From the NCBI RefSeq assembly GCF_053078305.1, contig NZ_CP166879.1: DNA of 64,000 bases; one strand, written 5' to 3'. Within the stretch, counting starts at the first letter, position 1. Each line of letters begins with the position of its first letter. A program made the translations under genes and the position numbers. This document shows, in pieces, positions 4,456-53,072 of the stretch. The notes beneath the pieces are model-generated. The model searched no databases, was not told the origin of the DNA, and saw nothing but the letters and a program-made list of their open reading frames with translations.

Positions 4456-5174
4456 CGCAGATGACGACCGCCATCAAGTGGGAAACTGCGTCCGGTGACA
4501 AAGCAACTGGTAAGTAAGTAATCGACCAGGTCGATCACTTCTTTCTCGCCAGGCGCGGTTTTCATCAGTGATTTATTCAGCGCCTGTTGTCGATATTCGG
4601 CATCATCATGTTCATTAAACAGGATCAGCGATGGCGCAATAGAATTCACTTTCACTTCCGGTGCCAGCTTGCGGGCAAACGAGCGGGTCATATTATCCAG
4701 TGCCGCTTTGCTTGCAGCATACGCAATATGCTTGTCGCTACCGCGCTCCACCACATAATCGGTAAAGTGAATGATATCGCTGGCGGCGTGTCCGTGCCCA
4801 CGCAGTAATCTTTCCAGCGCATGGTTGAGCAGGTATGGGGTATTAACGTGGATCTGCATCATGCAAGCCAGTACGTCGGCCAGTGGCGCACCCGGTTTTT
4901 CCGCCATCCACGCACTGGCGTTATGCAAAATAGCACGCAGACCATGGGTGCTTTTTAGTACTTCATCGGCAAACGCCATCACACCGTCGTTGGTCGAAAA
5001 ATCAGCCTGAATACACTGCGCACCTGCATTAATCAGTCCATCAATGGCTGGATAGTGTGTCCGATAGCTGACAATCACCGGTTGCTTTTGATTAATGAAA
5101 TGCCATGCAAGGGCGAGGCCGATGCGACGACCTCCGCCAGTAATTAATATTGGCAAGGGCTGGGTTTTACCCAT
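4452..5174 (-). CDS. folM: Dihydromonapterin reductase FolM (short-chain dehydrogenase)
   Basis: 240-aa ORF with N-terminal TGGGRRIG dinucleotide-binding motif and YxxxK active-site pattern; synteny. Confidence 0.85.
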   Translation of the reverse strand: MGKTQPLPILITGGGRRIGLALAWHFINQKQPVIVSYRTHYPAIDGLINAGAQCIQADFSTNDGVMAFADEVLKSTHGLRAILHNASAWMAEKPGAPLADVLACMMQIHVNTPYLLNHALERLLRGHGHAASDIIHFTDYVVERGSDKHIAYAASKAALDNMTRSFARKLAPEVKVNSIAPSLILFNEHDDAEYRQQALNKSLMKTAPGEKEVIDLVDYLLTSCFVTGRSFPLDGGRHLR

Positions 5175-5210
5175 CGTTATCTCCTTTACTATCCAACGAT
5201 GGGATGAACG

Positions 5211-6593
5211 TTATCCCACCAGCATCCAGGTCGCCGGAACTGAGGCAATTAACAGCATGCCAATCAGCACCATTTCCTGACGGTTCAGTACATTATCATG
5301 TGTATGCGTTTTGCGCGCATACAGGAAAACCAGCAGCCCCGGTGCATACAGAACAACGGATAACAGCAAGTGCATTGGACCAGAGGCGTACAATAACCAT
5401 AAGCCATAAATGCAGGCACCGACACCTACCGCTTTATGCAGTGGACGGGTTGCGATTTTCAGCAAGAACGCGCCGACCAGGAAATAGGGCACCAGAATCA
5501 TTTCTGAGGCGATGGTCAGCAACGTGTTGTAATCGGAACCGGTCAGCCAGATGAGTACCAGACAAATTTGCACGCAGATGTTGGTCAACCACAGTGAGGC
5601 GGATGGCGCAGCTTGTGCGTTCTGGCGCGCAAAAATGCGTGGGAATGCTTTATGAGTGGCAGCCAGGAACGGAACTTCTGCCGCCATGATGGTCCAGCTT
5701 AAGTACGCGCCGCAAACGGAAACGATCAAACCGGCAGCGATGATGATTTCGCCCCATGGTCCCATCATTTCCACCATCAGACCGGCCATTGATGGGTTAC
5801 GAATTTCAGCCAGTTCAGGACGTGCCACCACACCCAGCGAAAGCAGCGTTACCAGCAAGTAAACGCCCAGAGCGGAGAGAACCGCCAGTAGTGTCGCTTT
5901 GCCAACATCACGTTTATTACGCGCACGCGCAGAAACAACCACGGCACCTTCCACACCAATGAAAACCCACAGGGTGATCAGCATGGTGTTTTTCACCTGT
6001 TCCCAAACAGGTACGCCAAGTGCAAGTCCGGTGAAGTCGAGCTTGAAGGTATCCAGTTTGAACATCATCATCGCCAGCACAACAAACAGACCCAGCGGCA
6101 ACAATTTTGCCAGTGTCGCCACCAGGTTAATGCTGGCAGCGGTTTGCACCCCGCGCAGGATCAAAAAGTGAACAATCCACAATAAAGCCGATGCACCGAC
6201 TATCGATTGCCAGGTATTACCATCGCCAAACAGGCGCAATTCCGGCGTGTCCGTAAAAAAGCTTAACGCGGAAAAAACGATCACCAGATAGGAGACGTTG
6301 GCGATGACTGCACACAGCCAGTATCCCCATGCGGAACAAAAGCCGATTAGCTCGCCAAACCCTTCGCGGGCATAGGTAAAGATACCGCCGTCAAGTTCGG
6401 GACGAATGCGCGTGAGGATCAGCATGGCAAAGGCCAGCAATAAAATGCCAGCGCCAGTAATACCCCAGCCGATGAGCAGTGCTGCCGGGCTGGCAACTGC
6501 CGCCATATTTTGCGGCAGACTGAAAACACCCGCGCCCAGCATTGAGCTTAATACCAGCGCGGTGAGTGCGCTCAGTCCCAGTTTCTTTTCCAT
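5211..6593 (-). CDS. ydgI: Amino-acid antiporter YdgI/ArcD family (APC transporter)
   Basis: 460-aa polytopic membrane ORF; conserved position between folM and ydgH. Confidence 0.85.
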   Translation of the reverse strand: MEKKLGLSALTALVLSSMLGAGVFSLPQNMAAVASPAALLIGWGITGAGILLLAFAMLILTRIRPELDGGIFTYAREGFGELIGFCSAWGYWLCAVIANVSYLVIVFSALSFFTDTPELRLFGDGNTWQSIVGASALLWIVHFLILRGVQTAASINLVATLAKLLPLGLFVVLAMMMFKLDTFKLDFTGLALGVPVWEQVKNTMLITLWVFIGVEGAVVVSARARNKRDVGKATLLAVLSALGVYLLVTLLSLGVVARPELAEIRNPSMAGLMVEMMGPWGEIIIAAGLIVSVCGAYLSWTIMAAEVPFLAATHKAFPRIFARQNAQAAPSASLWLTNICVQICLVLIWLTGSDYNTLLTIASEMILVPYFLVGAFLLKIATRPLHKAVGVGACIYGLWLLYASGPMHLLLSVVLYAPGLLVFLYARKTHTHDNVLNRQEMVLIGMLLIASVPATWMLVG

Positions 6594-6725
6594 CGATATC
6601 CAGTGATTAAAACGTGATAAGAAGAATAAATATTAGGGCAAAACGCATAAAAATGGAGTTTGCCACTGAAGCGCGGGATTTTACGAAGAGATGTGTCTGC
6701 ATGCAATGGTCGTAGGGAAATTTGT

Positions 6726-6760
6726 GACTAAAAATGCGAAAGGCGGCATCAAGCCGCCTT
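6726..6760 (-). terminator. Putative intrinsic terminator downstream of ydgH
   Basis: Hairpin AGGCGGC-ATCAA-GCCGCCT (6741-6760) followed on the minus strand by a T-rich run. Confidence 0.4.
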
Positions 6761-6778
6761 ATAGGAGTAACTGAATAG

Positions 6779-7723
6779 TTATTTATACAGATCTGCGCTG
6801 ACGGTCAGGTTATTACCACGTTCCTGCCACTGGCGGGTGATGTGGTAATACTTAGCACCTTTCTTCGCGGCACGTTTCGCAACCTGATAGGAGACTTCGG
6901 TCATGTTGCCGTAGTTGCCAGAGAATTTGATGCTGTCGAACGGGACCATCATCGCTGCTGTCGCTTTGTTCAGTTCTTCGACTTTAGTGCCATCCGGGAG
7001 CGTGACGGTGTAACGCCCGCCTTTTGATGACTGGGTTTCAAAGAAGCGACCGACTTCAGAACTTGGTGATGCGGTAGTCGCAACACCCGGGATCTCAACT
7101 TTCTTCGCGGCTTCGCCACCGGCAGCCAGAGCTGCACGTCCTGCTTCGGAATCTGCCGGGATCACATCCGGGCTCTGGACGATACGTTTCTTAGCATCTT
7201 TTTTATAGATGAATGCAGTAATACGCTGGTTGCCGCCCTGGTTGGCATCGATTTGACGAACGATGTAGAAAGAGTAGGCACCTTTCGCTTTTGCCGCTTT
7301 GGTGATGGCATCATTGACTTCTGGCTGGCTACGATAGAAGCCCTGGACGGTGACCGTGTCAAACGGTTCAATCAGAACAGCCTGATCTTTCGGCAGTTCG
7401 ACAACACCGTTAATTACGCGATTACTTGTTTCTTCTGCTTTTTCAGCATCGGCTTTATAGAGGTCAGCGACCACACGCCAGTTACCGCTGTTACCAAAAT
7501 CAGAAGTGTCGACAACATAAAAAGAGGCGGCACCTTCTTTATCTGCGCGACGAGAAACGGCTTTCACCGCTTCGCCAATAGCATTAAAACGACCGGTAAC
7601 CACTACACGGTCAAAAGGTTTAACCGCTGCCGCTTGCTCCGGTGTCAGTTCTGTTGCTGCGTTAACGGAGAATGCCGTAGCAGAAAGCAGTGCCGACGCC
7701 AGGAGGGTGTTCTTAAGCTTCAT
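6779..7723 (-). CDS. ydgH: Periplasmic protein YdgH (DUF1471 repeats)
   Basis: 314-aa ORF with signal peptide and three internally repeated segments; synteny. Confidence 0.85.
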   Translation of the reverse strand: MKLKNTLLASALLSATAFSVNAATELTPEQAAAVKPFDRVVVTGRFNAIGEAVKAVSRRADKEGAASFYVVDTSDFGNSGNWRVVADLYKADAEKAEETSNRVINGVVELPKDQAVLIEPFDTVTVQGFYRSQPEVNDAITKAAKAKGAYSFYIVRQIDANQGGNQRITAFIYKKDAKKRIVQSPDVIPADSEAGRAALAAGGEAAKKVEIPGVATTASPSSEVGRFFETQSSKGGRYTVTLPDGTKVEELNKATAAMMVPFDSIKFSGNYGNMTEVSYQVAKRAAKKGAKYYHITRQWQERGNNLTVSADLYK

Positions 7724-33446: not shown

Positions 33447-34721
33447 TTACCCCGCCTTGTTATGGGGCATGGTTGGGGCAAACTCGCTTAGCTGTGTATT
33501 TAACAGCGTTACCTGTGCATTATTATTTTCTGACATCCATTTTCCGTACACCTGAAACACCATTTGCGCATCGGCATGCCCCATCTGGTTTGCTATGAAT
33601 GCAGGATTAGCACCAGCTGTTAGCGACCAGCAGGCATAAGTATGTCTCGACTGATATGATTTTCGGTGGCGGAGTCCTGCTCGTTTTATTGCTGCGTCCC
33701 ACATCTGTCTTATTGAGTCAACAGTAAAATGGTCACCATAATTTTTTACTCTCGCTGACACTTCAGGTTGAAAAACAAAGGTGCATTTTTGTTTTTCTGT
33801 TCTGCCATACTCTCTGAGGTGAACATCAATGATATGCTCTTTGCTCAGTCTCGTTAGTGTCATCTGATTCTGGAGGGCCTCGATTGCTGGCTTAATAAGG
33901 TGAATTACACGATTAGTCCCCGCCTGTGTTTTTGGTACCGTAAAATGGTCTTTTGCTAAATTTCTCCTGATCATCATTGTTCCATTTTTCAGATCTATGT
34001 CCTCCCATCCAAGTGCACACAACTCACCAGGGCGAACGCCAGTATAAACAGAAACACACCACAAATTTTTGGCTTGCTGATTTCTGCACGCATCTATAAG
34101 GCGGATAAATTCCTCCCGCGAAAGAGGATCTGGAATGGTTCTTGATTCCTTTAATGGCGATATCCCCTTAAACGGATTATCTGCCAGGTAGCTGTTATCA
34201 ACACCAAACTGGAACACGGCGTTAAGATTTGTCATGTAATTATTTACGGTAACAGCCGATCTCCCGGGTTGTGTAACAATATAGTTACTTTTGGGGATCT
34301 GGTATCCAGTCAGTAACTCTTTACGAACCTCCAGTAATTTTTCTTTATTAATCGATGAGGCAAGATTTTTTTCACCGATTATGCTCAGGATATTTTTGAT
34401 GACGGCACGGTATGTATTGAGTGAACTTCTGGCAACTTCGGCCTCTTTTAGTGCCAGAAATTTTTCGGCCAGTTCACCTATAGTCAAATTTTGTCTGGCT
34501 TCCCCAAATTTTTCCAGATTGTGGGAGTAGGGGAACTGTTTTGCGTAGTCAAAAATCCCCGTTTTTATTGCGTAACAAACAGAAGCGCGTAGTTCACCAG
34601 CGATGCGTCTGTTTTTTACTGTGTCAGGGACACCGAGGTTTTCCCTGACTCTTACGCCTTTATAAACAAACCAGATGCGTAATGTCCCCCCGTGTTTTTC
34701 TACGCCTGTCGGATATTTCAT
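33447..34721 (-). CDS. int: Phage integrase (tyrosine recombinase)
   Basis: 424-aa ORF with C-terminal catalytic R...H-x-x-R...Y region (RHTYACWSLTAG...HADAQMVFQVYGKW); adjacent to the disrupted ydfJ. Confidence 0.9.
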   Translation of the reverse strand: MKYPTGVEKHGGTLRIWFVYKGVRVRENLGVPDTVKNRRIAGELRASVCYAIKTGIFDYAKQFPYSHNLEKFGEARQNLTIGELAEKFLALKEAEVARSSLNTYRAVIKNILSIIGEKNLASSINKEKLLEVRKELLTGYQIPKSNYIVTQPGRSAVTVNNYMTNLNAVFQFGVDNSYLADNPFKGISPLKESRTIPDPLSREEFIRLIDACRNQQAKNLWCVSVYTGVRPGELCALGWEDIDLKNGTMMIRRNLAKDHFTVPKTQAGTNRVIHLIKPAIEALQNQMTLTRLSKEHIIDVHLREYGRTEKQKCTFVFQPEVSARVKNYGDHFTVDSIRQMWDAAIKRAGLRHRKSYQSRHTYACWSLTAGANPAFIANQMGHADAQMVFQVYGKWMSENNNAQVTLLNTQLSEFAPTMPHNKAG

Positions 34722-34755: not shown

Positions 34756-35007
34756 TTAAGCAAGGTGACGTCTTGGCCTTGCCGATGCCTGACGCTCGAT
34801 CCAGCGATCAATTTCTTCCAGATTGTAAAAACATGGGCTGTTATCCCACGGCATGCCGTCATGAGCGACATGTTTATACTCTCTCCCTTCCATAAATGAT
34901 TTTTCCCTGGCTTTTTTCAGTGTTCCTTTTTTTATTCCTTTCAGCGCAATTAACTGCTCTTCAGATACCCATTTGCCGGGAGAGACAATCATGATTACTT
35001 CACTCAT
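34756..35007 (-). CDS. xis: Putative excisionase
   Basis: 83-aa ORF immediately upstream of int on the same strand; typical xis position. Confidence 0.5.
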   Translation of the reverse strand: MSEVIMIVSPGKWVSEEQLIALKGIKKGTLKKAREKSFMEGREYKHVAHDGMPWDNSPCFYNLEEIDRWIERQASARPRRHLA

Positions 35008-35077: not shown

Positions 35078-37597
35078 TTAAAAATCAGCCTGATTCGGGA
35101 ACAGTTTTTGCCAGATAACTGAAACGTATTTTGCCTGGTAACGCGCATCGTGCAGGGCATTATGGCGTTCACCCTCAAATGTGATGACGTTGCGGGCATC
35201 GAAATCCATCACCAGTCCCAGGGCAACAATCGTTCTTACATCACGATCGTTGTAGTGACGCCACGGGCAGGGGATTTCTTGTCGTTTATATGAACGGCTT
35301 AAAATTACGTTGTCGAAGTTGGCTCCATTTCCCCAGACCTGAACAAAAAACTCACCGGAGTTTTCGTCTATAAATTCCCGTAATTGTAAAAGCGCATCAT
35401 CAAGCGGTATTCGATCAGCTAAAATGGCGGCACGGGCTTCGCCAGAGCGTTGAAGCCACCATTCGATGGTGCTTATGTCTACAGTGCCACCACATGTATC
35501 CATATCAATTATTTTGCTGAATTCTGGCCCCAGTTCTCCGGTTTGCGGATCGAAAAAGACTGCGCCTATTGAGGCTATTGGTGCGTCAGGATTTTTGCCC
35601 ATCGTTTCAAGGTCAATCATCAGGTGATCCCACATTCTGCTGGTGGATGTGCTTTCACGATGACCGTTCACCTTAATTAAGGGATTTGCTGTCTCGCCTG
35701 TTTCATTATTGCCATTGGCATGTTGATCGCCTTCGGTGCACTCCTTGTTCGGGTGTCCGGCACTTTCCATTTCCTCCAGATCTTTTTCCCGGGCTTCATC
35801 CTGGCTTTCTTCGTTGAATGTCTCCTGGTATGTTGCGTCGCCCATCACCGCGCCACAGTCAGGACAGTTGCCGCCACCGCTCTGACCGCAGGCGGTGCAG
35901 ACTTTTTCCTCTTCCTGTTGCGCTACTGGTTCGGATTGTTTCGTTTCTGGCTCGTCTTGTAACGCATTTTGGCTGTTTTGTTCTGCTTTCTGGTCGTTCT
36001 GTTCCGTTTCTTGCTGGTTCTGGTTCACAGAATCGCAGGTTTCAATCCCCTTAACCCATTTCGAATCATTCGGGTCGCTAATCCCTTCAACAAACTCACC
36101 ACGGGAAGCGGCAAGCAATTTGTCGGCATCTGGTCGACTGATGTCTGCTGCCTCCATAATTTTATTTACTTCTTCAGCAGTAACTTTTACCTGTGACTTG
36201 TCATCCAGCGGCTGCGGGTCCTGATGATGTTCAACTGTATCCGCTGCCATTGTTTCAGCCGTTGCCTGTTCATCTGCCATTGCGCCAGATGGCTGCGGTT
36301 TTTCTTCATCATCCTGTTTTCCTTCTTTTGTTACACGCTGAGGGATAGGGGCAGAGGAGCGACCGCAGGCAATATCCACGATTTCCGGATCAGGGTTGGC
36401 ATGATCGGTTTCGGTCAGTACTTTGTTCAGATATTCGGTAACACGGTGGGGAGTAGCCTCGATACCAATTGGTGCTTCTTTCACGGACGCAACTACTATC
36501 GCGCGGGAATAATCCAGGTGACCAGGCATGGCGATGAATTTGTCACGAAAAACAGAAAAGGGCGGCTTATTCTCTGAAACGATTTCTTCAATGCGTTTGG
36601 CGTGTGCCGGATGTGGATTGTAAATATCGATGTCCATTGAACGGGCCAGAACGCCAGCGGCAACGTCACGTTCCACTGACGCATCATCGTGGACAAAACC
36701 TTCACCGCGATCGGTAAGAATTCCTCCGCCAGCATTAGCGCCGGACGGGGTGCGATTGATTTCAGATACGCAATTTCCCTTTGCCCACTCTTTTGTCAAC
36801 AGCCCCTGATCAAGGTAGTCAGTCTTCATCCAGGTGGAAATGAACTTGTCGAATTCTGCCGGGCTGATACGGCGTGTTGTTGCGTGAGTGAATGCCTTTT
36901 CCACCGAATGCGCCAGTCTTCCAAGATGATGGTTTGTCAGCTTATCCAGCTCAGGATGCGAACGTACTGCAGTAAGCAGGCTCTGTATGTTTCCATCTTC
37001 CATATCCATTTCGATGCGGATCACGTCCTTGCGTTGTTCTGGTGTGGCGTGATGTTTGTATTTCTCGTCGAACTCCTGACCAAAGAAGTAGAGGTGCAGG
37101 AAGCGATGGGTAAGACTCAGGGTGGAGACGGGGATTTCACATTCAGGGCAGTCATCGTTGCTGTCCGGGGATTCGCTTTTATCTGCGTTCTCTGTCTGAG
37201 AGTCACTTTGTTCATCGCAGTCACGGCTGACACCTGTAACAGCTTCGCCGCTGGTATTGTCAGTGCTGGCAGGTTTGTCCTGAGCTGAAGGGGAAGGAGC
37301 TATAAATATCATTGTGATACCATCTTCCCCGCCTTTTTCGTAACGGTTGCAGAATTCAGTATCAAACACGCCTTCTGGAGGAAGGTCATTCACAACGGGT
37401 AAATGGACGCGAACAGGTTTTTTAAAGTCGTCCTCGTCATAATCATTATCATCCATTGCGGTAATGCAGCGGGAGATGGCAACAGATAATTTTTTTGCTG
37501 TAGTCCAGTAAAAACCACCTTTAATCCCAAGGCGTTTTCTGACCTTGTCATTTTTTGCTTCGCAATATAGTGCAAAAGTTTCTTTATCAGTGCTCAT
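35078..37597 (-). CDS. Prophage exonuclease, 839 aa, with C-terminal DEDDh-type 3'-5' exonuclease domain (often annotated exodeoxyribonuclease VIII)
   Basis: C-terminal approx. 190 aa carry the exonuclease motifs (MIDLETMG ... NGANFD ... HNALHDARYQA); central region strongly acidic and low-complexity with a CxxC...CxxC pair. Confidence 0.6.
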   Translation of the reverse strand: MSTDKETFALYCEAKNDKVRKRLGIKGGFYWTTAKKLSVAISRCITAMDDNDYDEDDFKKPVRVHLPVVNDLPPEGVFDTEFCNRYEKGGEDGITMIFIAPSPSAQDKPASTDNTSGEAVTGVSRDCDEQSDSQTENADKSESPDSNDDCPECEIPVSTLSLTHRFLHLYFFGQEFDEKYKHHATPEQRKDVIRIEMDMEDGNIQSLLTAVRSHPELDKLTNHHLGRLAHSVEKAFTHATTRRISPAEFDKFISTWMKTDYLDQGLLTKEWAKGNCVSEINRTPSGANAGGGILTDRGEGFVHDDASVERDVAAGVLARSMDIDIYNPHPAHAKRIEEIVSENKPPFSVFRDKFIAMPGHLDYSRAIVVASVKEAPIGIEATPHRVTEYLNKVLTETDHANPDPEIVDIACGRSSAPIPQRVTKEGKQDDEEKPQPSGAMADEQATAETMAADTVEHHQDPQPLDDKSQVKVTAEEVNKIMEAADISRPDADKLLAASRGEFVEGISDPNDSKWVKGIETCDSVNQNQQETEQNDQKAEQNSQNALQDEPETKQSEPVAQQEEEKVCTACGQSGGGNCPDCGAVMGDATYQETFNEESQDEAREKDLEEMESAGHPNKECTEGDQHANGNNETGETANPLIKVNGHRESTSTSRMWDHLMIDLETMGKNPDAPIASIGAVFFDPQTGELGPEFSKIIDMDTCGGTVDISTIEWWLQRSGEARAAILADRIPLDDALLQLREFIDENSGEFFVQVWGNGANFDNVILSRSYKRQEIPCPWRHYNDRDVRTIVALGLVMDFDARNVITFEGERHNALHDARYQAKYVSVIWQKLFPNQADF

Positions 37598-37689
37598 TGA
37601 TAAACCTCATTACTATTTTAAGGTTGTGCGAATCCCTGCCATTGCTGGCATTTTTAATCCGTTTGTATGGCGTTAATATGGCTGGTGGG

Positions 37690-37878
37690 TTATCCAGCCG
37701 GTATTTCGTTATTCAGGTACAGCGATACTTTTTTTAACGGGAGGCATTCGCCAGAAATTTTTTGCTCGTCTCTTGCACGGAGGCATGATTCTTTACTGGC
37801 ATAAATTCCGGTAATCACATTCTGTGGCTCACCCGTTATAAGAAAAACAGTCATTACCAGTGCAAATGCAGAAGTCAC
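37690..37878 (-). CDS. ydfD: YdfD-like small protein (DUF1482)
   Basis: 62-aa ORF immediately downstream of the dicB-like gene; resembles Qin YdfD in length and N-terminal hydrophobic segment. Confidence 0.55.
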   Translation of the reverse strand: MTSAFALVMTVFLITGEPQNVITGIYASKESCLRARDEQKISGECLPLKKVSLYLNNEIPAG

Positions 37879-38063
37879 TGCTGCCCCCCGAAAATACCAA
37901 GTTTAAGAAGGGCAATTCTGGAGAGTATGGAATTATCATTGAGAAGATAAGGCTCATATTTTCTCATCTTAATGGCATCTTCAGTAAACTCCCGGTTACT
38001 GAGCAGAACACCAATATCAAAACACCCTTCAGACGTATTAACGTTTGGTAATAACGTTTCCAT
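37875..38063 (-). CDS. dicB: DicB-like cell-division inhibitor
   Basis: 62-aa ORF METLLPNVNTSEGCFDIGV...FTEDAI... closely resembles K-12 DicB (MKTLLPNVNTSEGCFEIGV...). Confidence 0.7.
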   Translation of the reverse strand: METLLPNVNTSEGCFDIGVLLSNREFTEDAIKMRKYEPYLLNDNSILSRIALLKLGIFGGQQ

Positions 38064-38073
38064 TATCGCGTCC

Positions 38074-38631
38074 TCAACAATGAATTTTTAGTAATTGCTC
38101 CACAGTCATATTTTTAATTGCGCTCCGGTTTACAAGAGTCCAGCCTTGTTTCTCCAGATAAAACTGGAAGGTATCCAGGGTGCAGACCATTGCGCCGTCC
38201 GGAACGGTTTCAGTGAATTTGATATTGCCGTGTTCGTCGAGACGGATAACCAGGGTACGTCCGTCCCCGTGAATCATTTTGTCGGGAGACGGGGCGTTAT
38301 TCTGGCGCAGTTCTTTCTCCATGCGATCGAACTCAGCGATGTAGGCTTCTTTAAATGCAGCGGCTTTTTTGCCGGTGAAGCCCATCACCAGGAAAACGAA
38401 GCCGTTTTTGGTGATTTGGTACATGGGGCGTTTTTCGCCTTTGGCATCGGTGTAGGTAACCGACACAAAATTGTGTTCGTTAAAATTTGATGAGCAGTCT
38501 AAATTGCGAATTTTATCCAGTACTCGCTCGTGACGCTTACCAAAGAACTCTGCAATTGCAACAGACGTAGTGACAGCGCGACCATTTTTGATGGTTACGT
38601 CAGGGTGAGAAAGGGTAGGGATAGTAGCCAT
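38074..38631 (-). CDS. Rha-family phage regulatory protein
   Basis: Translation MATIPTLSHPDVTIKNGRAVTTSVAIAEFFGKRHERVLDKIRNL matches the Rha N-terminal motif; AAGAGG SD upstream; the track's longer ORF (to 38928) crosses a terminator-like hairpin. Confidence 0.6.
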   Translation of the reverse strand: MATIPTLSHPDVTIKNGRAVTTSVAIAEFFGKRHERVLDKIRNLDCSSNFNEHNFVSVTYTDAKGEKRPMYQITKNGFVFLVMGFTGKKAAAFKEAYIAEFDRMEKELRQNNAPSPDKMIHGDGRTLVIRLDEHGNIKFTETVPDGAMVCTLDTFQFYLEKQGWTLVNRSAIKNMTVEQLLKIHC

Positions 38632-38794
38632 AATGGCAGCCTCTTGGTTGAGTATTAATAACTCACCACCAAGGTTTTCCACGACCATAAGGGTGGTGAG
38701 ACGTACAGGGGTGGAAATACCGGTCAACCAAGAATCCGGCCAGCCTTGCGGCTGCCCTGCACGCCCCACCATAATCTGAATGTGGCTGTGCATT

Positions 38795-38823
38795 ACGCAT
38801 AAAAAAACCGCCTGAGCGCGGTT
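38795..38823 (-). terminator. Weak intrinsic terminator between the DicF-like RNA and the Rha-like gene
   Basis: Minus-strand AACCGCGCTCAGGCGG followed by TTTTTTT; stem only 4-5 bp. Confidence 0.3.
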
Positions 38824-39119
38824 ATGCGCTTGATTGAATTCCGGGTTTCCACGCCCGGCACCCGCTTTATGAGGTGCAGATGAACTATAATTCCACCCGT
38901 TCTGGTTTTCAATAGCTACATTCAACATTTTCTCTTACCCTTCATCACCGAAGTGAACTTTGTTGATGCAGTGCCTGGTGCCTCCAGGTGACGTTAACCA
39001 GTTAACAATTAACGCCGGAATACAGAAGTATGCCCGTTACGCCCCGTAAAAGACCACTTTACGGTTTTAACTGTTCCGCGTGCGCTTAGCCGCATTCACC
39101 GCATCACAAAATTCACTTT

Positions 39120-39177
39120 AAAAAGGGTGGCAGAGCAGTCACGGAGTAGAACTGATGCCACCAAAGACTACACATGG
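39120..39177 (-). ncRNA. dicF: DicF-like small RNA
   Basis: Minus strand reads ...GGTGGCATCAGTTCTACTCCGTGACTGCTCTGCCACCCTTTTT, near-identical to the 3' two-thirds of K-12 DicF including its terminator hairpin; 5' segment diverges. Confidence 0.55.
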
Positions 39178-46094: not shown

Positions 46095-46385
46095 CCTGGC
46101 CTGAAGCATTAACAACGGTAGGAATTGCGATGGCGGTGGCGCTGGTGGTGTATTCGATTTGCCGCTGGGGATAAAAACGGTTTGCGGGAAAAGGAGAGTT
46201 AAGTAGAATTGCAGCGGGTGCTTGAGGCTATCTGTCTCAGGCATGAACACCAAAAGGCAGATAGAGAAAAGCCCCAGTTAACATTACGCGTCCGGCAAGA
46301 CGCTTAACATTAATCTGAGGCTCAATCTGTGAACGGCAAATCTAGGTTAGCCTCTTACGCGCCGAAAGGCAAGGAGAAGCAGGCT

Positions 46386-46541
46386 ATGAAGCAGCAAAAG
46401 GCGATGTTAGTCGCCCTGATCGTCATCTGTATTACCGTCATTGTGACGGCACTGGTAACGAGGAAAGACCTCTGCGAGGTACGAATCCGAACCGGCCAGA
46501 CGGAGGTCGCTGTCTTCACAGCTTACGAACCTGAGGAGTAA
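46386..46541 (+). CDS. hokD: Hok/Gef-family type I toxin (HokD-like)
   Basis: Translation MKQQKAMLVALIVICITVIVTALVTRKDLCEVRIRTGQTEVAVFTAYEPEE; upstream in-frame extension corresponds to the overlapping mok frame. Confidence 0.85.
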   Translation: MKQQKAMLVALIVICITVIVTALVTRKDLCEVRIRTGQTEVAVFTAYEPEE

Positions 46542-46643: not shown

Positions 46644-46961
46644 TCAGGATATTACCTGGATCCCGTTTTTCTCGACAACTGAAAGAAGCCGAAGAGCTGC
46701 ACCTCCCGGGCGTTTCACTCCTCGTTCCCAGTCTGATATCAGGTTTTTACTGACGTTGAGGTATCTGGCAAAAACAGGTTGAGACAGATGCTCTCGTTCT
46801 CGCAGTGCACGGATCCTTTCTGGAGACATTACCGGCGCAGGCTGAAGACAAGTTTCATCGAATTCGCGCATAGTTTGTTTTGTGATTGCACCGATATCAT
46901 GGAGTGACTCCATCATTTCATGTACAGATGCAAGTGCATCACTGCGGTAATTTTTACTCAT
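46644..46961 (-). CDS. HTH (XRE family) antitoxin, HigA-like
   Basis: 105-aa ORF with C-terminal HTH (LSQPVFARYLNVSKNLISDWERG); overlaps the upstream toxin gene by 8 nt. Confidence 0.55.
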   Translation of the reverse strand: MSKNYRSDALASVHEMMESLHDIGAITKQTMREFDETCLQPAPVMSPERIRALREREHLSQPVFARYLNVSKNLISDWERGVKRPGGAALRLLSVVEKNGIQVIS

Positions 46962-47325
46962 TGGGTACCTCCGTGAACTGGCCTTGTTGAATCAATTGTG
47001 CCAGCTGTTCATCAGTAAGATTGAGGACATGGGGAGCGGCTTTTCGAAAAGCATTTTCCTCTATAGCAGTGATATTCTCTCGTTCATTCTTTGCGTATGC
47101 GTAGATGAAAAAGGCTTTTTCTGCAACGCGGTAAAAAATTATTGTCCGGTAACCGCCTGATTTTCCGCCACCACTTCGGGCTAATCTTTGTTTAATGACA
47201 CCACTACCCAAATTTGCGGATATGATCCCCTTATCGGCCAGCTCCACGATTTTGCGCAGCGATTTATCGGAAATCCGATGTTTTCGGGCGAAACGTTCAA
47301 ACCAGGCGTTTTTGAAAATTCGCAT
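46954..47325 (-). CDS. RelE/ParE-superfamily toxin, HigB-like
   Basis: 123-aa ORF with GGGKSGGYRTIIFY segment; toxin-first order typical of higBA. Confidence 0.5.
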   Translation of the reverse strand: MRIFKNAWFERFARKHRISDKSLRKIVELADKGIISANLGSGVIKQRLARSGGGKSGGYRTIIFYRVAEKAFFIYAYAKNERENITAIEENAFRKAAPHVLNLTDEQLAQLIQQGQFTEVPNE

Positions 47326-51757: not shown

Positions 51758-51833
51758 GGCCCTTTAGCTCAGTGGTGAGAGCGAGCGACTCATAATCGCC
51801 AGGTCGCTGGTTCAAATCCAGCAAGGGCCACCA
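51758..51833 (+). tRNA. tRNA with CAU anticodon, ileX-like (tRNA-Ile2 lysidine type)
   Basis: Cloverleaf GGCCCTTTAGCTCAGTGGTGAGAGC...ACTCATAATCG...GGTTCAAATCC...AAGGGCCACCA; close to E. coli ileX. Confidence 0.75.
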
Positions 51834-51842
51834 TATCACATA

Positions 51843-51919
51843 CCGCCATTAGCTCATCGGGACAGAGCGTCAGCCTTCGAAGCTGGTTGCGCGGGGTTCG
51901 AGTCCTCGATGGCGGTCCA
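51843..51919 (+). tRNA. tRNA-Arg (anticodon TCG)
   Basis: Acceptor stem CCGCCAT/ATGGCGG, anticodon loop CTTCGAA, T-loop GGTTCGAGTCC, 3' CCA. Confidence 0.7.
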
Positions 51920-51932
51920 TTATCGGTATTCA

Positions 51933-52009
51933 GCGTTGTTAGCTCAGCCGGACAGAGCAATTGCCTTCTAAGCAATCGGTCACTGGTTCGAATCCAGTAC
52001 AACGCGCCA
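51933..52009 (+). tRNA. tRNA-Arg (anticodon TCT)
   Basis: Acceptor stem GCGTTGT/ACAACGC, anticodon loop CTTCTAA, T-loop GGTTCGAATCC, 3' CCA. Confidence 0.75.
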
Positions 52010-52771: not shown

Positions 52772-53019
52772 CCGGGTATCAGTCATGCCCCGAAAATTTT
52801 AAATGTCTCACAATTCAGACGGTTGACAGTTGTCTGTTTTGCGGGGAGTTTGTTAAAAGAAACTGGCATGGTGAATCCCCCTGAGCGGAGGGGCGACTGG
52901 TGCATTAGGTGTTATCTTTGATACCTAGGAAAGTGAACGCGCGGGTTTGGTTGCACCGGGCTGAACTCACCGGGAGGCACCCGGCATCATGCGCATGATG
53001 ATACAGATACGCGGCTTTA

Positions 53020-53046
53020 GCCCCTCTCCGGAGGGGCTTTTATATG
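53020..53046 (+). terminator. Intrinsic terminator
   Basis: GCCCCTC-TCCG-GAGGGGC hairpin followed by TTTTATATG. Confidence 0.6.
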
Positions 53047-53072
53047 AATTTTGTAAGATATGAGTAAACTAA

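What the first reader, a model, noticed from the sequence alone, without database searches (positions are those of the whole stretch)
35078..37597. 839-aa exonuclease with a long acidic low-complexity region
Only the C-terminal approx. 190 aa look like a DEDDh 3'-5' exonuclease. The preceding approx. 650 aa include a very acidic, Q/E/D-rich stretch and a CxxC...CxxC pair. It sits in the early operon where recombination genes normally lie. The N-terminal region's function is unknown.
Basis: partly seen in the sequence, partly recalled or inferred. Interest (0 to 1): 0.45.

Follow-up and report, generated by a model that had tools for sequence, protein, structure and literature searches.

The report
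RecE-like prophage protein with swapped nuclease
This E. coli prophage gene joins the mysterious front part of the recombination enzyme RecE to a different nuclease that cuts DNA from the opposite end; the family is common and catalogued but untested, so it is a useful though not surprising handle on what the RecE front part does.

Summary
The ORF is real and exactly as described (35078-37597, minus strand, 839 aa). It is the last early-left gene, just before xis and int, of a lambdoid prophage at the E. coli Qin/rspB site.

The C-terminal 183 aa are a DnaQ-like DEDDh 3'-5' exonuclease (Pfam Rv2179c-like, E=2.6e-63; D662, E664, D762, H812 and D817 all present).

The protein is therefore a chimera. 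It has a confidently predicted N-terminal module with no known structural relative (aa 1-105 and 150-425). A disordered acidic linker follows, carrying a short helical pair and a Cys4 ribbon, and then the DEDDh domain.

The same N-terminal module also occurs with RecE's nuclease (next to RecT), with a 45-aa tail (next to Gam and lambda Bet/Exo-like genes), and once with RecT itself. DEDDh fusions never sit beside an annealase or an anti-RecBCD gene. The prophage is Chi-rich, like phage Tritos, which carries a family member.

My best guess, which is inferred, is that it trims DNA 3' ends in aid of host RecBCD/Chi recombination. The family is catalogued but uncharacterised, so this is a new member of a known kind.

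The parts
35078..37597 (-). Complete CDS, 839 aa plus stop: a chimeric exonuclease made of a RecE-type N-terminal module joined to a DEDDh domain
   Evidence: ORF list; 99% identical over residues 1-645 to P0001, an 839-aa NCBI 'exonuclease [E. coli]'; Pfam PF06630 + PF16473
37283..37597 (-). aa 1-105: N-terminal alpha/beta subdomain of the RecE-N module. It contains the conserved P67, D71, P73, C83, Y86 motif.
   Evidence: AF2 pLDDT 85-98; conservation profile; dN/dS 0.08-0.15; PF06630 / phrog_607
37151..37282 (-). aa 106-149: acidic disordered insert of variable length, with a CxxC at 150-153 on its edge
   Evidence: pLDDT 38-51; net charge -11 over aa 100-165; low alignment occupancy; dN/dS 0.2-0.77
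36323..37150 (-). aa 150-425: mainly helical core of the RecE-N module. It carries the family's most conserved motifs: E270-W271, T283, G290-G291, T295-D296-R297, R365, P383, E396.
   Evidence: pLDDT 84-98; about 81-90% identical to RecE proteins over aa 251-420; conservation; dN/dS ~0.13; no structural neighbour
35900..36322 (-). aa 426-566: disordered acidic Q/E/D-rich linker 1, which includes the conserved helical pair below
   Evidence: pLDDT below 50 except around aa 490-510; composition; dN/dS 0.19-0.57
36104..36175 (-). aa 475-498: short conserved helical pair within the linker, followed by the LLAASRGEFVEGISDPND motif; shared with RecE
   Evidence: Helices 475-482 and 491-498, block pLDDT 77-84; aligned with RecE; conservation
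35855..35899 (-). aa 567-581: Cys4 zinc-ribbon-like knuckle (CTAC-x7-CPDC)
   Evidence: Cys positions; identical spacing in K-12 RecE; dN/dS 0.07-0.17; only weak Pfam DZR (E=0.068) and NCBIfam ribbon hits; pLDDT only ~57; present in only ~20% of divergent family members
35630..35854 (-). aa 582-656: acidic linker 2. Homology with RecE ends at aa 641 (…ETGETANPLI), which is the recombination breakpoint shared by all three C-terminal types.
   Evidence: Junction comparison; BLASTP end point; dN/dS 0.29-0.95
35081..35629 (-). aa 657-839: DnaQ-like DEDDh 3'-5' exonuclease domain (Rv2179c-like/DexA-like). Catalytic residues are D662, E664, D762, H812 and D817.
   Evidence: PF16473 E=2.6e-63; T4 DexA 8KEL E=1.3e-5; 52-54% identity to the epsilon34 and mEp235 exonucleases; catalytic residues invariant or nearly so in 49 unique fused domains; dN/dS ~0.13
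35639..35646 (+). Chi site (GCTGGTGG) on the antisense strand, lying on the codons for S651-T-S-R654 at the linker/DEDDh junction
   Evidence: conserved at the same codons in four E. coli-type DEDDh fusion genes; absent from K-12 recE and from the P0064 and P0095 genes
37681..37688 (+). Chi site in the ydfD-exonuclease intergenic spacer, 91 nt upstream of the start codon
   Evidence: same position in the UTAK-6 and P0116 loci
34756..35007 (-). Excisionase gene immediately downstream (DUF1233)
33447..34721 (-). Integrase gene (424 aa) at the prophage end next to host rspB
   Evidence: ORF and its translation, with no family search run on it; integrase occupies the same position in relatives; host flank 99% identical to E. 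coli rspA-rspB
37690..38063 (-). ydfD-like (DUF1482) and dicB genes immediately upstream in the same operon
   Evidence: same order in relatives
39125..39176 (-). DicF sRNA further upstream in the same leftward operon
   Evidence: Rfam RF00039, 61 bits against a gathering score of 48

Best explanation
The gene encodes a modular early-left nuclease of a Qin/Tritos-type lambdoid prophage.

Shown: the protein has three parts. (1) A folded N-terminal module homologous to the N-terminal region of RecE (aa 1-105 and 150-425) with no known structural relative. (2) A disordered acidic linker shared with RecE, carrying a conserved helical pair and a Cys4 ribbon. (3) A DnaQ-like DEDDh exonuclease domain with an intact active site, sitting where RecE has its 5'-3' PD-(D/E)XK nuclease. 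The swap lies at a single breakpoint at the end of the shared linker. The same N-module is also found joined to RecE's nuclease, to a 45-aa tail next to Gam and lambda Bet/Exo-like genes, and to RecT.

Inferred from homology: the C-terminal domain removes nucleotides from DNA 3' ends.

Inferred from context: the N-module supplies a function that does not depend on nuclease polarity, such as targeting or tethering to DNA ends or to a shared partner. This prophage has no annealase and no anti-RecBCD gene and is Chi-rich. In that setting the enzyme most likely trims 3' single-stranded tails on phage DNA ends, so that host RecBCD can load, meet Chi and drive RecA-dependent recombination that supports phage growth.
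For: Identity and anatomy:
- PF16473 E=2.6e-63 and PF06630; NF007259 covers aa 1-641.
- BLASTP to K-12 RecE covers query 58-641 = RecE 50-591 and stops before the nuclease domain.
- The DEDDh residues are present and near-invariant in 49 unique sequences.
- AF2 pLDDT exceeds 90 for aa 1-105 and 150-425.
- Purifying selection acts on all folded parts, with relaxed linkers.

Modularity:
- Three architectures sit on near-identical N-termini and recur among divergent representatives. There is also a RecE-N::RecT fusion.
- N-terminal segments are mosaic and do not track C-terminal type.
- All types share one breakpoint.
- Against UTAK-6, dS is at most 0.005 for aa 1-425 but 1.04 for the DEDDh domain.

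Context:
- PD-(D/E)XK forms sit next to RecT. Tail forms sit next to Gam, a 261-aa RecT-family protein and a 226-aa YqaJ-family protein.
- DEDDh fusions are always the last gene before xis/int with no annealase. This holds in 80 of 80 further loci.
- Stand-alone homologues lie in Erf/Rad52-SSB-exo-Abc2 modules. Of 80 such loci, 79 have Abc2 and none has Gam.
- So the domain is found where RecBCD stays active.

Chi:
- The prophage part holds 12 Chi sites in 30.6 kb (9 on +, 3 on -). The adjacent host DNA holds 5 in 33.4 kb, and shuffles predict about 2 for the whole window.
- Phage Tritos carries a family member. It is the prototype of the nuclease-only, Chi-rich class of Zheng et al. 2025 (PMC12315714).
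- Host 3'-5' ssDNA exonucleases are known to recreate blunt ends for RecBCD loading (PMC5592934).
Against: - No biochemical data exist for any fused member.
- The Pfam family is named after an RNase (Rv2179c), so the substrate could be RNA.
- 3'-5' exonucleases usually inhibit rather than promote recombination, as Zheng et al. note.
- E. coli already has several 3' exonucleases, so a phage copy may be redundant.
- The 160 loci are closely related, so the co-occurrence pattern is not an independent statistical test. Only Gam, Abc2, Bet, lambda Exo, RecT, one Erf/Rad52-type annealase and SSB were used as probes.
- The Chi enrichment could simply mark the phage class without involving this protein.
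- Nothing here shows what the N-module binds.
Confidence: 0.5

Rival explanations
1. It is a polarity-reversed RecE. The enzyme resects 3' strands to expose 5' tails, and these are annealed by an annealase supplied in trans, for example RecT or Bet from a co-resident prophage. It would then still act in a RecA-independent single-strand-annealing pathway.
For: The N-module and linker are shared with RecE, and the N-module also accompanies RecT or a lambda Red-like gene set. Stand-alone homologues lie next to Erf/Rad52-type annealases and SSB. E. coli genomes commonly carry several family members: a median of 2 and up to 9 matching places per genome.
Against: No annealase lies in cis in any of the 7 annotated contexts or the 80 extra loci. 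Tritos, described by Zheng et al. as lacking an annealase, is an isolated phage. Known annealase-nuclease pairs interact specifically and load onto 3' tails (review PMC11611040).
Confidence: 0.17
2. It is a prophage-encoded anti-phage nuclease of the HREX type. Like the E. coli DexA homologue EcD, it would selectively degrade modified (5hmC) DNA of superinfecting T-even phages.
For: The domain belongs to the same family as T4 DexA (8KEL, E=1.3e-5). Kang et al. 2025 (PMC12153337) show that stand-alone EcD cuts 5hmC DNA only and protects against T4. The residue equivalent to DexA D169 is kept (D798). The EcD-like proxy is 39% identical to the domain here.
Against: The equivalent of DexA W152, needed for 5hmC recognition, is Tyr here and varies (T/Y/C/W/H) across fused members. 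The D169 equivalent is Gly in 14 of 49. The domain is closer to the Rec-module exonuclease of mEp235 (54% identity) than to the EcD proxy (39%). By its position and orientation downstream of DicF and dicB, the gene appears to belong to the repressor-controlled dicB-type early-left operon rather than a lysogen-expressed moron. That membership is inferred, not measured. The conserved 650-aa N-terminal extension is unexplained by this model.
Confidence: 0.12
3. It is a 3'-5' exoribonuclease, as several database records name it, and it processes or degrades phage or host RNAs during the early phase.
For: The Pfam family PF16473 is named for the M. tuberculosis RNase Rv2179c. Several NCBI records are named '3'-5' exoribonuclease'. 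The operon is rich in regulatory RNAs: DicF, isrK and C4.
Against: The only solved relative detected by sequence is the DNase T4 DexA. The closest stand-alone homologues are embedded in DNA recombination modules. The fusion partner is the N-terminal region of a DNA exonuclease.
Confidence: 0.08
4. It is a decaying, non-functional relic of recE in a defective prophage.
For: The Qin site in K-12 carries a truncated family member, ydfE. Many database entries are partial.
Against: The 839-aa reading frame is intact. dN/dS is 0.07-0.15 for all folded parts and the catalytic residues are invariant. Intact copies occur in isolated phage genomes: Tritos, Chris1 and vB_EcoS-640R1.
Confidence: 0.03

Closest known systems
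RecE (exonuclease VIII) of the Rac prophage, E. coli K-12 b1350
   Same: The N-terminal ~590 aa are homologous: query 58-641 aligns with RecE 50-591 at 53% identity, and about 81% over aa 251-420. The acidic linker, helical pair and Cys4 ribbon are the same. The gene is also in the early-left operon close to xis/int.
   Different: The C-terminal PD-(D/E)XK 5'-3' nuclease (PF12684) is absent and replaced by a DEDDh 3'-5' domain. There is no adjacent recT. The score is below the NCBIfam equivalog cut-off (791 against 1269 bits).
Stand-alone DnaQ-type exonucleases of lambdoid Rec modules (epsilon34 gp34, mEp235 gp30; Zheng et al. 2025, PMC12315714)
   Same: They are 52-54% identical to aa 657-832, have the same DEDDh motifs and lie in the early-left operon.
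   Different: They are 182-aa proteins packed between SSB and Abc2 beside an Erf/Rad52-type annealase. The protein here is fused to a 656-aa RecE-type N-terminal region and has no Rec-module neighbours.
Phage Tritos TRITO_27 (823 aa) and its K-12 remnant YdfE (Qin prophage)
   Same: The operon is the same (DicF-DicB-YdfD-exonuclease-Xis-Int). Linker plus DEDDh domain are 59.5% identical over query 337-838. In K-12 the remnant sits at the same rspB-adjacent site.
   Different: The N-terminal ~300 aa are a YdfE-type allele, related to the RecE-type module only at profile level (hhalign 97.6%, E=4e-12; no BLASTP similarity). K-12 ydfE is cut by IS2 after residue 256.
T4 DexA and E. coli EcD (HREX; Kang et al. 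2025, PMC12153337; PDB 8KEL)
   Same: They share the DEDDh fold family and catalytic residues. DexA is the only solved structure detectable by sequence.
   Different: Identity is only 28% to DexA and 39% to the EcD-like proxy. DexA's extra loops are missing. The W152 equivalent is Tyr. The domain here is fused to a large N-terminal region.
'RecE-2' nuclease-less RecE relatives (Zheng et al. 2025)
   Same: The N-terminal module and linker are the same. The 681-700-aa proteins found here (for example P0095 and P0042) probably correspond to them.
   Different: They end in a conserved ~45-aa tail instead of a nuclease, and they sit directly upstream of Gam and lambda Bet/Exo-like genes.

Membership tests
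DEDDh / DnaQ-like 3'-5' exonucleases, Rv2179c-like family (PF16473) | Profile match above the curated threshold | tested here: met
   213.3 bits against a cut-off of 27, E=2.6e-63, aa 658-829 covering model positions 2-177 of 177
DEDDh / DnaQ-like 3'-5' exonucleases, Rv2179c-like family (PF16473) | Exo I (DxE), Exo II (D) and Exo III (H-x4-D) catalytic motifs | tested here: met
   D662, E664, D762, H812 and D817 are present. They align with DexA D7, E9, D119, H186 and D191, and are invariant or nearly so in 49 unique fused domains.
DEDDh / DnaQ-like 3'-5' exonucleases, Rv2179c-like family (PF16473) | 3'-5' exonuclease activity and substrate (DNA or RNA) | not testable with these tools
   Requires enzyme assays
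RecE / exodeoxyribonuclease VIII (NCBIfam NF007259 equivalog) | N-terminal RecE region (PF06630 and beyond) | tested here: met
   PF06630 E=6e-12; NF007259 model positions 1-602 matched; BLASTP 53% identity to RecE 50-591
RecE / exodeoxyribonuclease VIII (NCBIfam NF007259 equivalog) | C-terminal PD-(D/E)XK 5'-3' nuclease domain (PF12684; RecE residues ~600-866) | tested here: not met
   No PF12684 hit. The alignment to RecE ends at RecE residue 591. NF007259 model positions 603-877 are unmatched.
RecE / exodeoxyribonuclease VIII (NCBIfam NF007259 equivalog) | Score above the curated equivalog cut-off | tested here: not met
   791 bits against 1269
RecE / exodeoxyribonuclease VIII (NCBIfam NF007259 equivalog) | Adjacent partner annealase gene recT | tested here: not met
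   The downstream gene is xis. No RecT, Bet or Erf was found among the early-region ORFs scanned between 34.7 and 50 kb. PD-(D/E)XK relatives do have recT adjacent.
HREX (5hmC-recognising DexA/EcD exonucleases, Kang et al. 2025) | Trp equivalent to DexA W152 (stacks on 5hmC) | tested here: not met
   Tyr782 here. The position is T/Y/C/W/H across 49 fused domains. The EcD-like proxy keeps Trp.
HREX (5hmC-recognising DexA/EcD exonucleases, Kang et al. 2025) | Acidic residue equivalent to DexA D169 | tested here: inconclusive
   D798 is present by the HMMER alignment. The position is Gly in 14 of 49 fused domains, and this loop aligns differently with MAFFT.
HREX (5hmC-recognising DexA/EcD exonucleases, Kang et al. 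2025) | Selective cleavage of 5hmC DNA and protection against T4 | not testable with these tools
   Needs nuclease and plaque assays
Lambdoid 'Tritos-class' phages: nuclease-only early-left region, no annealase, no anti-RecBCD, Chi-rich (Zheng et al. 2025) | Nuclease gene near int with no annealase, SSB or anti-RecBCD gene in the early-left operon | tested here: met
   The gene order is repressor, DUF1391, DicF, Rha/Ash, DicB, YdfD, exonuclease, Xis, Int. Tritos itself has the same order and a family member.
Lambdoid 'Tritos-class' phages: nuclease-only early-left region, no annealase, no anti-RecBCD, Chi-rich (Zheng et al. 2025) | Abundant, orientation-biased Chi sites | tested here: met
   There are 12 Chi sites in the visible 30.6 kb of prophage (9 on +, 3 on -), against 5 in 33.4 kb of host DNA. 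Shuffles predict 2.26 for the whole window. Only about half of the prophage is in the window.

The most novel reading that the evidence does not exclude
The RecE/YdfE N-terminal region is an autonomous adaptor module with a previously unseen fold. It delivers interchangeable DNA-processing effectors to one common target at phage DNA ends or on a host protein. The effectors are a 5'-3' nuclease, a 3'-5' nuclease, an annealase, or a 45-aa peptide that may recruit lambda Red. The DEDDh fusions would be a dedicated 'RecBCD helper' that blunts 3' tails, so that annealase-less, Chi-rich lambdoid phages can exploit host RecBCD/Chi recombination. This would make a 3'-5' exonuclease pro-recombinogenic, the opposite of the usual rule.
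Probability: 0.22. Interest if true: 0.65.

Novelty: new member of a known kind. Interest (0 to 1): 0.4.

Why it matters
The function of RecE's large N-terminal region has been unknown for decades, although full-length RecE is the engine of linear-linear recombineering.

This gene belongs to a natural experiment. The same N-terminal module is joined to nucleases of opposite polarity, to an annealase, or to no enzyme at all. Whatever the module does therefore cannot depend on resection polarity, which narrows the hypotheses to targeting, tethering or partner recruitment. It also gives ready-made constructs to test them.

The work explains the E. coli K-12 pseudogene ydfE as the stump of such an exonuclease. 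It also flags that database names such as 'exodeoxyribonuclease VIII' and '3'-5' exoribonuclease' for these proteins are unverified and probably wrong in part.

If the RecBCD-helper idea holds, it would supply a missing enzymatic piece for the recently described class of Chi-rich lambdoid phages that depend on host RecBCD.

Tried and rejected
1. K-12 Qin ydfE as a direct homologue. BLASTP showed no similarity, so I first rejected it. I then revised this. A profile comparison gave 97.6% probability, and YdfE residues 1-256 are 99% identical to the N-terminus of the Tritos 823-aa exonuclease. YdfE is therefore a remote N-terminal allele truncated by IS2.

2. An internal start codon that would give a free DEDDh domain. 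Rejected: M655 is not conserved (Leu or Thr in relatives), Met1 of the stand-alone enzymes aligns to W656, and there is no Shine-Dalgarno sequence upstream.

3. A fold assignment for the N-module.
- Foldseek against the PDB gave a best E of 2.
- Foldseek against BFVD gave a best E of 0.27.
- The afdb50 library was unavailable.
No relative was found.

I replaced it with local phmmer classification plus a 10-protein Pfam scan. That scan found no further payload domain except RecT in P0123.

5. Retrieval of EcD (HAK9828821.1). The reverse-primer search found nothing. The forward-primer search gave 189-aa proxies with the reported A78. The exact EcD sequence was not obtained.

6. The supplementary tables of Zheng et al. 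2025 are not held. I could not see how they classified the Tritos nuclease.

7. PMC12825301 (RecE truncations in mammalian cells) gave nothing usable on the N-terminal region.

8. The zinc ribbon as a family-defining feature. Rejected: it is present in only ~20% of divergent members.


Full report
**Observation**

Over residues 1-645, the part searched, it is 99% identical to P0001, an 839-aa NCBI protein named only 'exonuclease [Escherichia coli]'.

The protein is very acidic, with 155 D+E against 86 K+R. Residues 521-566 are 83% polar or charged with net charge -9. The CxxC...CxxC pair is C567/C570 and C578/C581.

The host flank is 99% identical to E. coli rspA-rspB. The gene therefore belongs to a prophage integrated at the site that the Qin prophage occupies in K-12.

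**What the two halves are**

Pfam places a Rv2179c-like DEDDh domain at aa 658-829 (E=2.6e-63). It also reports the family Exonuc_VIII at aa 57-196. The NCBIfam RecE equivalog matches aa 1-641 but only model positions 1-602 of 877, scoring 791 bits against a cut-off of 1269.

A direct BLASTP against K-12 Rac RecE aligns query 58-641 with RecE 50-591 at 53% identity, and about 81% over aa 251-420. The alignment ends just before RecE's PD-(D/E)XK nuclease domain.

The only solved structure detectable by sequence is T4 DexA (8KEL), a DNA 3'-5' exonuclease. The five catalytic residues (D662, E664, D762, H812, D817) are present. They are invariant or nearly so across 49 unique fused domains.

The protein is thus a RecE whose nuclease has been replaced by one of the opposite polarity. 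By the membership test it is not RecE: the defining nuclease domain, the equivalog score and the recT neighbour are all missing.

**Anatomy**

I built a 122-sequence family alignment and ran AlphaFold2 on residues 1-657.
- Residues 1-105 (alpha/beta) and 150-425 (mostly helical) are predicted with pLDDT above 90.
- Residues 106-148 are a disordered acidic insert.
- Residues 427-657 are largely disordered. The exceptions are a helical pair at 475-498 (pLDDT about 80) and the Cys4 knuckle (pLDDT about 57).

Conserved positions cluster in 67-86 and in the core: E270-W271, T283, G290-G291, T295-D296-R297, R365, P383 and E396.

Segment-wise dN/dS shows which parts are constrained:
- N-terminal subdomain: 0.08-0.15
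- helical core: about 0.13
- Cys4 ribbon: 0.07-0.17
- DEDDh domain: about 0.13
- linkers: about 0.2-0.95

The 'long acidic low-complexity region' is therefore a linker, inherited together with the N-module from the RecE lineage.

**Modularity**

Among the 120 closest relatives of the N-terminal region, three architectures share near-identical N-termini:
- N-module plus DEDDh (about 814-852 aa)
- N-module plus PD-(D/E)XK (915-1060 aa, true RecE)
- N-module plus a conserved ~45-aa tail with no nuclease (681-700 aa)

An exhaustive search found only 222 representatives among 1.84 billion clusters. All three architectures recur among them. One representative has the N-module fused to a RecT domain.

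N-terminal segments are mosaic and do not follow C-terminal type. For example, query 58-165 is 94% identical to tail-type proteins but 57% identical to other DEDDh-type proteins.

All three types share the linker up to '...SDETGE.A.P.I' and diverge immediately afterwards. Against the UTAK-6 allele, residues 1-425 have dS of at most 0.005 while the DEDDh domain has dS of 1.04, which is direct evidence of recent intragenic recombination.

**Context**

- True RecE forms are followed by recT.
- Tail forms are followed by Gam, a 261-aa RecT-family protein and a 226-aa YqaJ nuclease, which is a lambda Red-like set.
- DEDDh fusions are always the last early-left gene before xis/int with no annealase. 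This holds in this window, E. coli UTAK-6, phage 640R1, phage Chris1, four further contexts, phage Tritos and 80 of 80 additional viral contigs.
- Stand-alone homologues of the domain (52-54% identical) lie inside Erf/Rad52-SSB-exo-Abc2 modules in mEp235 and epsilon34.
- Of 80 further stand-alone loci, 79 have Abc2 and none has Gam.

These loci are closely related, so this shows consistency and is not independent statistics.

**Link to recent literature**

Zheng et al. 2025 (PMC12315714) report DnaQ-like 3'-5' nucleases in lambdoid Rec modules and sporadic ones 'very near int'. They also report nuclease-less 'RecE-2' proteins of unknown role. They define a 'Tritos' class with only a nuclease and many Chi sites, and they propose that phages without anti-RecBCD use Chi and RecBCD for recombination-dependent growth.

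Tritos carries an 823-aa family member in the same DicF-DicB-YdfD-exonuclease-Xis-Int operon. The window has DicF, dicB and ydfD upstream as well.

The visible 30.6 kb of this prophage contains 12 Chi sites (9 on +, 3 on -). The neighbouring host DNA has 5 in 33.4 kb, and shuffles predict about 2 for the whole window.

Host 3'-5' ssDNA exonucleases are known to trim 3' tails and recreate the blunt ends that RecBCD needs for loading (PMC5592934).

**Mechanism proposed**

Shown: an intact, selected DEDDh active site; an N-module whose presence is independent of nuclease polarity; and the absence of an annealase and of anti-RecBCD in a Chi-rich prophage.

Inferred: the enzyme trims DNA 3' ends. 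The N-module targets or tethers it to DNA ends or to a common partner. The net effect is to feed phage DNA ends into host RecBCD/Chi/RecA recombination.

I give the structural identification about 0.9 confidence and the functional role about 0.35, for roughly 0.5 overall.

**Rivals**

- A polarity-reversed RecE that uses an annealase supplied in trans (0.17).
- An HREX-like anti-T-even defence nuclease. Kang et al. 2025 (PMC12153337) showed that the stand-alone E. coli homologue EcD cuts only 5hmC DNA and protects against T4. Here the W152 equivalent is Tyr and variable in the family, and the domain is closer to the Rec-module type (54%) than to an EcD-like proxy (39%) (0.12).
- An RNase, as some records name it (0.08).
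- A dead relic, which selection and the intact phage copies contradict (0.03).

**By-product**

The K-12 pseudogene ydfE shows no BLASTP similarity to the query. At profile level, however, it is a remote homologue of the N-module (97.6%, E=4e-12). Its first 256 residues are 99% identical to the N-terminus of the Tritos exonuclease.

So ydfE is the IS2-truncated stump of a DEDDh exonuclease carrying a YdfE-type N-terminal allele. Among 80 fused loci, 52 carry the YdfE-type allele and 27 the RecE-type.

**Novelty and score**

The protein and its family are in the databases, carry Pfam architecture PF06630+PF16473, and fall within a phage class described in 2025. The gene is therefore a new member of a known but experimentally uncharacterised kind.

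The analysis adds several points:
- the explicit domain-swap reading;
- the single breakpoint;
- the lack of any structural relative for the N-module;
- the set of four alternative C-terminal partners;
- the ydfE explanation;
- a testable RecBCD-helper hypothesis.

Interest is 0.4. A specialist would not be greatly surprised, but the result makes the old question of the RecE N-terminal function more tractable.

Noticed in passing
window 33400-64000 (Chi at 35639, 37681, 46141, 50220, 50537, 52708, 57972, 58560, 59547 on +; 48787, 51351, 53873 on -): The prophage part of the window is Chi-rich and orientation-biased: 12 sites in 30.6 kb, 9:3. The adjacent host DNA has 5 in 33.4 kb and shuffles predict about 2 for the whole window. 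This matches the Chi-rich class of lambdoid phages lacking annealase and anti-RecBCD described by Zheng et al. 2025.
   Followed up: partly
window 35639-35646 (+) and 37681-37688 (+): Two same-orientation Chi sites bracket the N-module plus linker. One lies on the 'TSTS' codons at the linker/DEDDh junction, and is conserved in four E. coli-type fusion genes. The other lies 91 nt upstream of the start codon. All 7 DEDDh-type genes checked have an antisense-strand Chi in the linker or at the junction. K-12 recE and the P0064 and P0095 genes have none inside the gene. These sites may promote the domain shuffling seen, or may just reflect the phage class.
   Followed up: partly
L004:5079-5999 (E. 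coli K-12 ydfE, b1577) and L020:5170-7641 (phage Tritos TRITO_27): Residues 1-256 of the K-12 pseudogene ydfE are 99% identical to the N-terminus of the 823-aa Tritos DEDDh exonuclease. ydfE is therefore an IS2-truncated exonuclease gene. Its N-terminal region is a remote homologue of the RecE N-module (hhalign 97.6%).
   Followed up: yes
proteins P0095, P0042, P0056 (loci L005-L007, gene at 5001-7079): RecE-N proteins of 681-700 aa have no nuclease. They end in a conserved ~45-aa tail (DWKRQLVIAAVYGLCANPA...IANRLE) and overlap the start of a Gam gene, which is followed by lambda Bet-like and Exo-like genes. They are probably the 'RecE-2' proteins of Zheng et al. The role of the tail is unknown.
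   Followed up: partly
protein P0123 (703 aa): This is a RecE N-module fused directly to a RecT domain (PF03837 at aa 528-678). It may be a deletion fusion or a fourth natural architecture.
   Followed up: no
window 38689-38877 (-) and ORF 38074-38928 (-): Rfam finds C4 antisense RNA (38689-38776) and isrK (38801-38877) inside the 5' part of the 284-aa 'Ash+Rha' ORF. The Ash-like N-terminal part of that ORF may therefore be an RNA-coding immunity region (P1/P7 immI-like) and not protein-coding sequence.
   Followed up: no
window 46216-46391 (+) and 46644-47325 (-): A sok antitoxin RNA of a hok/sok-type module lies next to a RelE-like toxin (PF06296) and HTH antitoxin gene pair, in the region between the replication genes and the Q antiterminator gene.
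   Followed up: no
window 51758-52006 (+) and 52837-53049 (+): There are three tandem tRNA genes and an STnc100 sRNA downstream of the Q antiterminator region. From my own knowledge, not tested here, this arrangement is typical of Stx-like and Sp-like lambdoid prophages.
   Followed up: no
loci L029, L030, L033, L036, L043, L044: A 189-aa stand-alone DEDDh protein starts MIDTETLGNGPDAAIF. It matches the forward cloning primer and the reported A78 of the anti-T4 nuclease EcD (Kang et al. 2025). It is 39% identical to the DEDDh domain studied here.
   Followed up: partly
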